This document shows positions 29,601 to 32,600 of a stretch of 64,000 nt of DNA, piece after piece (positions within the stretch are counted from its first letter, which is position 1; each line of letters opens with the position of its first letter). Made by a program: the position numbers. This stretch comes from Escherichia coli (GTDB taxonomy: Bacteria; Pseudomonadota; Gammaproteobacteria; Enterobacterales; Enterobacteriaceae): assembly GCF_017348835.2 (NCBI RefSeq), contig NZ_CP071375.1. One strand, 5' to 3'.

Positions 29601-32600
29601 TGCGTTGCAGAAAGTCGGCAAATAATTAACACTTTGTCTCCTTTAGTGAAAATTTTTCCTTCTTCAGGCTCCAGTAGTAAATAATGTATTTGGCCAAATT
29701 GATCGGTGAGTTTTCCTTCGCAGGGATTACCTGAAGTGGCTTGATGACCGGTAATTAATGCCATGCTACCAATATATTCTTCTTCTGTAATAGCTGAACT
29801 ATGGTCGCGTGGAATCCAGGGCGCAACTATTTTACCGGTATAATGCACCGCAATAATCGTAAACAGTAAACTGACAGGAACCACGAACAGGTTCGACAGT
29901 GGTGATTGCCAGACCATGATGCAGGCATGCTGCAACAGGATGCCAATAAGACCAAAAAAACCAGCCAGCAAGCAGAGAACGACGAGAGCTGGCAATCTTC
30001 CGATATTGAGATAATGAAGTGCCTGGCTAATATGACCTGTGGTTATGGAATCATAATGGTCAAGATGTGCATCAAGAGCACCGGAGAGCATGTGACCGCA
30101 GATAAGCGCTAAAATTTCTAAAAGGCCGATCAACAGTACAAAGGAAATAGCGAAAAGATAAGGGGTATTATAGTCGGCGAATAAAATCATATGTCACTCC
30201 AATGTCCATTTAGTGACGCAATATTTACTTTGGGATAGTTTCCTTGCTTACATTTATCTTTGTTAATAATAACACATGTTAGAGAAGTTCTGGAAGAGAA
30301 AGTCTTTTAATATGGTTTTTTTATTTTTCACTAAAAAGTGTGATCGGGGACAATATATTTACGCACGTTATGTTTAAAGGCACTACACTGATTGGGGAAT
30401 ACTGAAATCAGAAAAAGCATATGGCCTTAAAAGGTATGCGATAACCGGAGGATGTGCTTATGGATCATAGTCTTAATTCTTTAAATAATTTCGATTTCCT
30501 GGCGCGTAGTTTTGCCAGAATGCACGCAGAAGGTCGCCCGGTCGATATTCTGGCCGTTACTGGTAACATGGATGAAGAACATAGAACCTGGTTTTGCGCA
30601 CGTTATGCCTGGTATTGCCAACAGATGATGCAAACCAGAGAACTTGAATTAGAACACTGATATTACGGGCCGTCTGGCCCGTTTTTGTGTTGCTTTATTC
30701 TGCTTTATCAATAGGCGGGATAGCCGGAGGAGATTGAAGATCTGCTACCGAATTATTGCGCGCCTCCAGTTCACTGATGCGCTGCTCCAGTAACGCCAGT
30801 TTTTCACGAGTCCGTAACAGGACTTGCGTCTGTACGTCGAATTCTTCGCGGCTCACCAGATCGAGACGCGTCAGCTGCGCTTGTAGGGTTTGGCGGATTT
30901 TTTTCTCCACATCTTCCCCGAACTCCCTGATTCCTTTAGGCATTGATTCGTGAACCTGGCGAGCGATTTGCTCAATTTTTTTCGGGTCAATCATTGTAGT
31001 TTCCCTGTACTGATAGGTGTTGAGTGCCATTGTAGTGCGATAAGGGTAAGTCATAAACCAGAATTATGTGAAGCTATGCGTTGCTGCCGCTAATCATTAG
31101 CGTTATAGTGAATCCGCTTATTCTCAGGGCGGGGCGAAATTCCCCACCGGCGGTAAATCAACTCAGTTGAAAGCCCGCGAGCGCTTTGGGTGCGAACTCA
31201 AAGGACAGCAGATCCGGTGTAATTCCGGGGCCGACGGTTAGAGTCCGGATGGGAGAGAGTAACGATTCTGTCGGGCATGGACCCGCTCACGTTATTTTGG
31301 CTATATGCCGCCACTCCTAAGACTGCCCTGATTCTGGTAACCATAATTTTAGTGAGGTTTTTTTACCATGAATCAGACGCTACTTTCCTCTTTTGGTACG
31401 CCTTTCGAACGTGTTGAAAATGCACTGGCTGCGCTGCGTGAAGGACGCGGTGTAATGGTGCTTGATGATGAAGACCGTGAAAACGAAGGTGATATGATCT
31501 TCCCGGCAGAAACCATGACTGTTGAGCAGATGGCGCTGACCATTCGCCACGGTAGCGGTATTGTTTGCCTGTGCATTACTGAAGATCGCCGTAAACAACT
31601 CGATCTGCCAATGATGGTAGAAAATAACACCAGCGCCTATGGCACCGGTTTTACCGTGACCATTGAAGCGGCTGAAGGTGTGACTACCGGTGTTTCTGCC
31701 GCTGACCGTATTACGACCGTTCGCGCAGCGATTGCCGATGGCGCAAAACCTTCTGATCTGAATCGCCCTGGCCACGTTTTCCCACTCCGCGCTCAGGCTG
31801 GTGGTGTACTGACGCGTGGCGGTCATACTGAAGCAACTATTGATCTAATGACGCTGGCAGGCTTCAAACCGGCTGGTGTGCTGTGTGAGCTGACTAATGA
31901 CGATGGCACGATGGCGCGTGCACCAGAGTGCATTGAGTTTGCCAATAAACACAATATGGCGCTTGTGACTATTGAAGACCTGGTGGCATACCGTCAGGCA
32001 CATGAGCGTAAAGCCAGCTGAAAACCGCTGCTTAAATTACTGCCTTAATCAAGAAACCGAAGTTGTAGCAGGCTTCGGTTTTTATTTTTCCCTGCTATGC
32101 AAGATGTTAATTCCGCTTCTCTTTCTATGAGAAAATTTCATTAATATCAGGCATTCTTTTTCATTATGATCAAAATCATATAATTGTTCCGTTATTATGC
32201 GACCATATGAATATATCCGAAAAAGGATATGTGAAATTTATGCGCTAAATGTTTAGTATTGTTAAATATTAAGGGTAAAAGGATGTTTATCGCCTGGTAC
32301 TGGATTGTATTGATTGCTCTGGTTGTGGTGGGTTATTTCCTGCATTTGAAACGTTATTGTCGGGCGTTTCGCCAGGACAGAGACGCACTGCTTGAAGCGC
32401 GGAACAAATACTTAAACAGTACGAGAGAAGAGACAGCCGAAAAGGTAGAATAAGGCTTTCGTGAAGCTGGCAGAAGTTGTCCATGCGCTGGACAACTTCT
32501 GATGTTGTTTTTAACCAATTCCCGCCGTTTGTAGCAGCACTAAACTGAATCCCATCACTGACATTCCACATAGTACGCCATAGCTGGGGTTATTATTAGG

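What the first reader, a model, noticed from the sequence alone, without database searches (positions are those of the whole stretch)
30661..30694. glgS abuts ubiK: the yqiGHI fimbrial locus appears to be absent
From memory, K-12 carries an IS2-disrupted chaperone-usher fimbrial operon (yqiG, yqiH, yqiI) between ubiK (yqiC) and glgS. Here the two genes are convergent and separated by only about 34 bp containing a terminator. This is a strain-level presence/absence difference that, with the other differences noted, says this is not a K-12-like strain.
Basis: partly seen in the sequence, partly recalled or inferred. Interest (0 to 1): 0.3.

Follow-up and report, generated by a model that had tools for sequence, protein, structure and literature searches.

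The report
Empty ancestral site between glgS and ubiK
In this E. coli strain glgS and ubiK sit tail to tail with only a 34-base terminator between them, because the fimbrial gene cluster that K-12 carries there was never inserted; this is an ordinary, already documented strain difference.

Summary
glgS (30460-30660, +) and ubiK (30695-30994, -) converge, and the 34 bp between them (30661-30694) hold a GC-rich hairpin followed by a T-tract.

Among 5,426 complete E. coli genomes there are three states:
- about 3,361 (62%) have the K-12-type operon between ubiK and glgS;
- about 985 (18%) have glgS abutting ubiK, with the related B2 Yqi/EA-I operon after ribB;
- 1,080 (20%), including this window and O157:H7/O55:H7, have neither.

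The abutment is the ancestral state, not a deletion. E. albertii, E. fergusonii, E. whittamii, three unnamed Escherichia lineages, Citrobacter, Salmonella and Trabulsiella all have glgS next to ubiK. All of these whose spacer was read share the hairpin core. All have the window-type UbiK tail.

The K-12-type allele is the derived one. It has a different UbiK tail. About 100 bp on each side of the operon differs from the window by 14-16%, and sequence further out is identical. This pattern indicates import by homologous recombination from an unidentified donor.

This is ordinary, known fimbrial presence/absence variation and of low interest.

The parts
30460..30660 (+). glgS (66 aa; surface composition regulator GlgS)
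   Evidence: ORF list; Pfam PF08971 at E = 1e-45; RefSeq annotation of the identical PE164 sequence.
30661..30694 (.). 34-bp spacer between the two stop codons. This is the unoccupied site where K-12-type strains carry ygiL-yqiGHI.
   Evidence: Sequence. Identical to the spacer of Escherichia sp. MOD1-EC7003 and differing at 2 of 34 positions in each of three other Escherichia lineages. Contiguous in 2,062 E. coli genomes.
30665..30692 (+). Intrinsic-terminator-like hairpin ACGGGCC-GTCT-GGCCCGT followed by TTTTTGTGTT; serves glgS. On the - strand the same hairpin follows ubiK but has no U-tract.
   Evidence: Terminator scan. Folds at -19.2 kcal/mol (+ strand) and -17.3 kcal/mol (- strand), z = -3.7 and -4.1. 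The hairpin core CGGGCC/GGCCCG is conserved in Citrobacter, Salmonella and Trabulsiella.
30695..30994 (-). ubiK (yqiC), 99 aa, ancestral-type allele
   Evidence: ORF (true start MIDPKK at 30994); Pfam BMFP PF04380 over residues 1-78; RefSeq annotation in PE164.
30695..30764 (-). 3' end of ubiK, encoding the tail [22 protein letters not shown]. It cannot be aligned with K-12 (tail NRSTEIKKQPDPETLPPTL). Together with 30692-30694 it forms the 73 bp that have no K-12 counterpart.
   Evidence: Local alignments to K-12 end at 30691 and resume at 30765. The tail matches the Escherichia, Citrobacter and Salmonella outgroups.
30600..30691 (+). Segment next to the site (glgS 3' end plus terminator) where the K-12-type allele is 14% divergent
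   Evidence: 13 mismatches in 92 bp against 0-4 per 100 bp further out.
30765..30870 (-). Segment next to the site (ubiK codons 43-77) where the K-12-type allele is 16% divergent; all differences are synonymous
   Evidence: 16-17 mismatches in about 105 bp, then 0 mismatches for the next 700 bp or so.
32022..32165 (.). Second unoccupied site, between ribB and yqiD, where B2 E. coli, E. fergusonii, E. whittamii and Trabulsiella carry the Yqi/EA-I-type operon
   Evidence: Alignments to ST131 (L030) and E. whittamii (L007) break at 32019-32021 and resume at 32165-32166. Annotations. 1,080 genomes are contiguous across both sites.

Best explanation
The window shows the ancestral, unoccupied form of the glgS-ubiK junction. 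The two genes converge and share a 34-bp spacer whose GC-rich hairpin plus T-tract ends glgS transcripts and very probably marks the 3' end of ubiK transcripts as well. The strain has no chaperone-usher operon at this site.

The K-12 arrangement, found in about 62% of complete E. coli genomes, is the derived state. A roughly 5.2-kb ygiL-yqiGHI operon sits between ubiK and the terminator, plus IS2 in K-12 itself. It arrived together with about 100 bp of foreign glgS 3' end and about 165 bp of foreign ubiK 3' end. The most likely route is homologous recombination with a donor that already carried the operon between these two genes. As a result K-12-type strains make a UbiK with a different 19-residue tail.

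Shown: gene identities, the hairpin, the absence of the operon, population frequencies, outgroup states and the divergence pattern. Inferred: actual termination at the hairpin, the recombination route and the direction of change.
For: 1. Anatomy.
2. The K-12 reference has ubiK-ygiL-yqiG::IS2-yqiH-yqiI-glgS.
3. Frequencies: 2,062 genomes have the direct junction and 3,361 have the K-12-type ygiL region. The two add up to 5,423 of the 5,425 genomes that match this locus. 993 genomes have the ribB-adjacent operon and 1,080 are contiguous across both sites.
4. Outgroups: glgS and ubiK are adjacent in E. albertii, three unnamed Escherichia lineages, E. whittamii, E. fergusonii, seven or more Citrobacter species, S. 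enterica arizonae and diarizonae, and Trabulsiella. The spacer is 28-73 bp, or 169 bp in E. fergusonii. Every spacer read has the same hairpin core, and the UbiK tail ends in the motif PAIPPxDxxE, as in the window.
5. Flank test: the K-12-type allele differs from the window at 17 of 105 nt and 13 of 92 nt beside the site. It is as far or further from every other Escherichia species there. Further out it has 0 mismatches to the window. The window's own flanks are 1-7 mismatches from ST131 and from MOD1-EC7003.
6. A tail like K-12's (...ETLPPTL, 96 aa) occurs in an unnamed, divergent enterobacterial contig that has glgS 192 bp from ubiK and no fimbrial genes. The tail is therefore a natural allele, not read-through into inserted DNA.
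Against: No donor of the K-12-type operon was found. The closest genuine non-E. coli YgiL homologues are at most 59% identical, so the recombination route rests only on the divergence pattern. No strain phylogeny was built, so whether this lineage kept the empty allele by descent or regained it by allelic exchange is open. On the - strand the hairpin lacks a U-tract, so termination of ubiK there is not shown. The outgroup sample came from a pattern-limited scan that returned only 27 loci.
Confidence: 0.9

Rival explanations
1. Secondary loss: an ancestor of this strain had the K-12-type operon and deleted it precisely, bringing glgS and ubiK together.
For: The operon is cryptic and often decayed: IS2 interrupts yqiG in K-12, and strain 2002-3211 has an IS3-family insertion in the usher gene and a frameshifted yqiH. 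Loss would therefore be plausible in principle.
Against: A deletion could not recreate the 73 bp absent from K-12, which include the ancestral UbiK tail. It also could not revert the 30 or so flanking substitutions to the state seen in other Escherichia species. The spacer is base-for-base identical to that of Escherichia sp. MOD1-EC7003.
Confidence: 0.03
2. Allelic replacement: this lineage once carried a fimbrial allele (K-12-type or B2-type) and regained the empty, ancestral-type allele by homologous recombination with another E. coli. On this view the junction is ancestral in sequence but not by direct descent.
For: The region is a mosaic. The window's glgS-ubiK-ribB part is 99.0-99.2% identical to some genomes with the ribB-adjacent operon (H129 and H130). 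Its yqiD-zupT side is K-12-like (98.3-98.4%) and about 10% from ST131. Divergence from K-12 along the flanks is patchy.
Against: Nothing requires it. O157:H7, O55:H7 and about 1,080 genomes share the doubly empty state, which is equally consistent with simple retention. No phylogeny or recombination analysis was run.
Confidence: 0.2
3. Artefact: a collapsed assembly or a misjoin removed the operon.
For: None.
Against: The same junction is present in 2,062 complete genomes from many laboratories and in the outgroup species.
Confidence: 0.01

Closest known systems
E. coli K-12 MG1655 ubiK-ygiL-yqiG::IS2-yqiH-yqiI-glgS locus ('Yqi-like' pi-type chaperone-usher fimbriae; Wurpel 2013 PMC3559732, Archer 2011 PMC3032704)
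   Same: Same chromosomal neighbourhood: hldE, sibDE/ibsDE, yqiK, yqiJ, glgS ... ubiK, FMN riboswitch, ribB, yqiD, zupT. The glgS terminator hairpin is retained. UbiK residues 1-77 are identical.
   Different: K-12 has 6.6 kb (5.2 kb of operon plus IS2) between ubiK and the terminator; the window has nothing there. The UbiK tail differs (96 aa against 99 aa). About 100 bp on each side of the site is 14-16% divergent.
B2/ExPEC Yqi fimbriae (ExPEC adhesin I; Antao 2009 PMC2771359; PMC8545135)
   Same: In ST131 glgS abuts ubiK through a 34-bp spacer that differs from the window's at one base, and UbiK has 99 aa.
   Different: ST131 carries a related four-gene operon between ribB and yqiD, 35-57% identical in protein to K-12's (judged from its E. 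whittamii counterpart). The window is contiguous across that site.
O157:H7 / O55:H7 and pig isolates PE164 and F2_81 (doubly empty haplotype)
   Same: Contiguous glgS|ubiK and ribB|yqiD. PE164 is 100% identical and O157:H7 ATCC 43888 is 98.6% identical over 2.8 kb. Antao 2009 (PMC2771359) reports that the EA/I cluster is not found in EDL933 or Sakai.
   Different: None in architecture; only point differences.
yqiC(ubiK)-glgS adjacency in Salmonella, Citrobacter, Trabulsiella and other Escherichia species
   Same: Convergent pair separated by 28-73 bp, with the hairpin core CGGGCC-loop-GGCCCG. The UbiK tail carries the PAIPPxDxxE motif in Escherichia, Citrobacter and Salmonella.
   Different: In several genera the hairpin is flanked by A- and T-tracts on both sides, a clearly bidirectional design. 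In the window only the glgS side has a good T-tract.

Membership tests
Yqi-like (ygiL-yqiGHI) chaperone-usher fimbrial operon at ubiK/glgS | Usher, chaperone, major subunit and adhesin genes lie between ubiK and glgS | tested here: not met
   tblastn with K-12 YgiL, YqiG, YqiH and YqiI at E <= 1e-3 finds nothing in the 64-kb window. Only 34 bp separate the two genes.
Yqi / ExPEC adhesin I operon (B2-type) at ribB/yqiD | A four-gene chaperone-usher operon lies between ribB and yqiD | tested here: not met
   The window runs without a break from ribB to yqiD and zupT and aligns end to end with the empty-site Escherichia lineages. It contains no usher or chaperone homologue.
Rho-independent (intrinsic) terminator | GC-rich stem-loop immediately followed by a U-tract on the transcribed strand | tested here: met
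   + strand (glgS): 7-bp stem with 6 G-C pairs, loop of 4, then TTTTTGTGTT; -19.2 kcal/mol, z = -3.7.
Bidirectional intrinsic terminator | A U-tract follows the hairpin on both strands | tested here: inconclusive
   On the - strand the hairpin is followed by AAUAUCA, not a U-tract. Citrobacter sp. NCU1 and Trabulsiella have symmetric A- and T-tracts. Actual 3' ends cannot be tested with these tools.
GlgS family | Full-length match to Pfam PF08971 above the gathering score | tested here: met
   153.9 bits against a cut-off of 32.2, covering residues 1-66 of 66.
UbiK / YqiC (BMFP) | Match to Pfam PF04380 above the gathering score | tested here: met
   96.2 bits against a cut-off of 37.2, residues 1-78. 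The variable tail lies outside the domain.
Classical mobile genomic island (as the origin of the K-12 insert) | Integrase gene, tRNA or attachment site, or flanking direct repeats at the boundaries | tested here: not met
   The K-12 annotation shows no integrase or tRNA; the only mobile element is IS2 inside yqiG. The boundaries are graded homology inside glgS and ubiK, not repeats.

The most novel reading that the evidence does not exclude
The majority E. coli allele, including K-12's, may be an inter-genus import. The ygiL-yqiGHI operon would have entered by homologous recombination within glgS and ubiK from an unidentified enterobacterial donor. If so, K-12 and about 62% of E. coli express a chimeric UbiK with a foreign C-terminal tail, and the window preserves the native E. 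coli form. The neighbouring ribB|yqiD site shows a similar signature for the B2 Yqi operon, with its flank locally about 20% divergent. That would make the ubiK-ribB pair a small hotspot where related fimbrial operons are swapped in by flanking homology rather than by mobile-element machinery.
Probability: 0.6. Interest if true: 0.3.

Novelty: already known. Interest (0 to 1): 0.15.

Why it matters
The finding matters little beyond strain typing. It places the window among the roughly 20% of complete E. coli genomes, including O157:H7 and O55:H7, that lack both the Yqi-like and the Yqi/EA-I fimbrial operons. That is a known axis of adhesin repertoire variation.

There is one minor practical point. 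The K-12 UbiK protein used in ubiquinone-biosynthesis studies carries a non-ancestral C-terminal tail outside the BMFP domain, so residues 78-96 of K-12 should not be taken as typical of the species or family. The locus is also a tidy example of an operon gained through flanking homology, without mobile-element hallmarks.

Tried and rejected
1. Search for the donor of the K-12-type operon. A YgiL protein search gave apparent intermediates at 69-81% identity (P0143, P0138). Their contigs have 0.3% C or 9.5% G and otherwise align to K-12, so they are bisulfite-converted E. coli reads and were rejected. P0141 is simply K-12-like E. coli without IS2. The closest genuine non-E. coli YgiL homologues are at most 59% identical.

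2. UbiK search for K-12-like tails. Most variants are frameshifted or extended E. coli and Shigella calls. Only P0022 (Logan contigs L032 and L033) is a real, divergent sequence with a related tail. It is no closer to K-12 than to the window in ubiK nt 127-231 (24 against 21 mismatches), so it is not the donor.

3. A sigma-70 promoter scan of 30200-31200 found nothing above the shuffled expectation.

4. One search failed on a length limit and was repeated.

5. The phylogroup of the window strain could not be assigned. No Clermont marker lies in the window and strain names carry no typing information.

Full report
**Observation**

The window encodes glgS at 30460-30660 (+) and ubiK at 30695-30994 (-); the ubiK start is the MIDPKK methionine. 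The stop codons are separated by exactly 34 bp, 30661-30694: TATTACGGGCCGTCTGGCCCGTTTTTGTGTTGCT. Both gene identities were tested. GlgS matches Pfam PF08971 (153.9 bits) and UbiK matches BMFP PF04380 (96.2 bits, residues 1-78). RefSeq annotates the identical sequence of strain PE164 as glgS and ubiK.

The spacer holds a hairpin at 30665-30682 (7 pairs, 6 of them G-C, loop GTCT) followed by TTTTTGTGTT. It folds at -19.2 kcal/mol on the + strand (z = -3.7) and at -17.3 kcal/mol on the - strand (z = -4.1). On the - strand no U-tract follows the hairpin. It is therefore a good glgS terminator and only a possible 3'-end structure for ubiK.

**Is the K-12 recollection right?**

Yes. MG1655 is annotated, in order, as ubiK, ygiL, yqiG (a pseudogene split by IS2I, with insC5 and insD5), yqiH, yqiI, then glgS convergent with yqiI. 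No homologue of YgiL, YqiG, YqiH or YqiI exists anywhere in the 64-kb window.

**How common is each state?**

In 5,426 complete RefSeq E. coli genomes:
- 2,062 carry the contiguous glgS|ubiK junction at 98-100% identity.
- 3,361 carry the K-12-type ubiK-distal/ygiL region. Their identities fall into three bands: 1,570 at 99% or more, 504 at 95-99%, and 1,287 at 90-95%.

The two classes add up to 5,423 of the 5,425 genomes that match this locus, so the site is essentially biallelic.

A second, related operon occupies a different site. An E. whittamii-derived probe finds it in 993 genomes. In ST131 it lies between ribB and yqiD, while glgS abuts ubiK. This is the B2-associated Yqi/ExPEC adhesin I cluster. 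The K-12 version is the 'Yqi-like' type, and the literature describes the two as mutually exclusive (Wurpel 2013, PMC3559732; Antao 2009, PMC2771359; PMC8545135).

A probe spanning both sites is contiguous in 1,080 genomes. These include PE164 (100% identical) and O157:H7 ATCC 43888. The window therefore belongs to a minority of about 20% that lacks both operons. Over 24 kb it is about 100% identical to the pig isolates PE164 and F2_81 and 99.1% identical to O55:H7 strains.

**Direction of change**

A scan of one genome per species with GlgS returned 27 loci. glgS and ubiK are adjacent and convergent in:
- E. albertii;
- three unnamed Escherichia lineages (MOD1-EC7003, E1V33, SCPM-O-B-8794);
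- E. whittamii;
- every Citrobacter locus recovered;
- S. enterica subsp. arizonae and diarizonae;
- three Trabulsiella genomes.

Spacers are 28-73 bp and all contain the hairpin core CGGGCC-loop-GGCCCG. The MOD1-EC7003 spacer is identical to the window's. A contig labelled E. fergusonii has ubiK and glgS 169 bp apart, with the B2-type operon after ribB.

The UbiK tails of the Escherichia, Citrobacter and Salmonella outgroups end in PAIPPxDxxE, like the window's [22 protein letters not shown]. The Trabulsiella tails are shorter and end VTPPVEQQD. K-12's tail, NRSTEIKKQPDPETLPPTL, is the odd one out. The abutment is therefore ancestral and the K-12 arrangement is an insertion.

**Anatomy of the difference**

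Homology between the window and K-12 stops at 30691 and resumes at 30765, inside ubiK. The 73 bp in between, mostly the last 23 codons of ubiK, have no alignable K-12 counterpart.

Divergence is concentrated at the edges. There are 13 mismatches in 30600-30691 and 16-17 in 30765-30870, all synonymous within ubiK. Beyond that there are no mismatches for about 700 bp on the ubiK side and 0-4 per 100 bp on the glgS side.

In these edge segments the K-12-type sequence is as far or further from every other Escherichia species (17-19 of 105 nt; 14-20 of 92 nt) than it is from the window. The window is close to ST131 (4 and 1 mismatches) and to MOD1-EC7003 (7 and 1). The 94%-identity class of the operon (strain 2002-3211) shares the same edges, which points to a single origin.

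My inference is that the operon entered E. coli by homologous recombination with crossovers inside glgS and ubiK, from a donor that already carried it between those genes. No integrase, tRNA or boundary repeats are present; IS2 is a later K-12 event.

**The UbiK tail**

The K-12 tail is not read-through into inserted DNA. An unnamed enterobacterial contig (Logan L032; 77-83% nt identity to E. coli) encodes a 96-aa UbiK ending NRSTVTVVKDDQETLPPTL. Its glgS lies 192 bp from ubiK and it has no fimbrial genes. It is not the donor itself.

The tail lies outside the BMFP domain, so a functional effect is not expected. That is inference only.

**Donor search**

The donor search was negative. Genuine non-E. 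coli YgiL homologues are at most 59% identical. The apparent 69-81% intermediates are bisulfite-converted E. coli reads, with cytosine at 0.3% of bases.

**Rivals**

- Precise deletion from a K-12-type ancestor is excluded in practice. It could not restore the ancestral tail or revert the flanking substitutions.
- Allelic replacement, meaning the empty allele was regained by recombination, cannot be excluded without a phylogeny. The region is a mosaic.
- An assembly artefact is excluded by the 2,062 independent genomes with the same junction.

**Verdict**

The refinement is that the window holds the ancestral empty site and K-12 holds the derived insertion, which comes with a chimeric ubiK 3' end. 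Presence/absence of Yqi-like and Yqi fimbriae among E. coli lineages is already documented. This is ordinary strain variation and of low interest.

Noticed in passing
window 27124-27273 and 27500-27649: Two tandem Sib antitoxin sRNA genes (Rfam SIB_RNA, 141 and 148 bits) lie between hldE and yqiK. They correspond to K-12 sibD/ibsD and sibE/ibsE and are about 91-92% identical to each other's K-12 copies. ST131 is annotated with only one ibs gene here.
   Followed up: partly
window 32022-32165; L030 (ST131) 5985-11590; L007; L040; L019, L020 and L022: The ribB-yqiD gap is a second fimbrial site. It is empty in the window and in K-12. It holds a Yqi/EA-I-type operon in ST131, E. whittamii, E. fergusonii and Trabulsiella. 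S. enterica arizonae has about 3.5 kb of other DNA there.
   Followed up: partly
window 32165-33400 against L030 11471-12711: Next to the B2-type operon, the ST131 yqiD-zupT flank is only 89.6% identical to the window and to K-12. There are 40-47 mismatches per 200 bp at 32200-32600. This repeats the divergent-flank signature seen at the K-12-type insertion.
   Followed up: partly
window 42394-49586: A cluster of about 7.2 kb lies between parE and ygiN: a TonB-dependent siderophore receptor, a FecCD-type ABC transporter and a MurR/RpiR regulator. K-12 has parE directly next to ygiN. Only 1,868 of 5,425 genomes cover at least 80% of the surrounding 24 kb.
   Followed up: partly
window 53751-53858 and 50557-50665: The mqsR-mqsA toxin-antitoxin pair (between ygiV and ygiS in K-12) and ygiZ (between qseC and mdaB in K-12) are both absent. 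Each gap is only about 108 bp.
   Followed up: partly
L032 and L033 (Logan SRR33454298, ERR3179213): An unnamed enterobacterium, 77-83% identical in nucleotides to E. coli, has a UbiK tail related to K-12's, a 70-aa GlgS and a 192-bp ubiK-glgS spacer with an extra inverted repeat. No named relative appears in the protein collection.
   Followed up: partly
L034-L038 (proteins P0143, P0138): The protein collection contains translated bisulfite-converted E. coli reads (C 0.3% or G 9.5%). They look like 69-81% identical 'homologues' and could mislead homology searches.
   Followed up: yes
L031 (strain 2002-3211) 8894-13474: In the 94%-identity class of the K-12-type operon, the usher gene is split by an IS3-family element and yqiH is frameshifted. 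This decay is independent of K-12's IS2 insertion.
   Followed up: no
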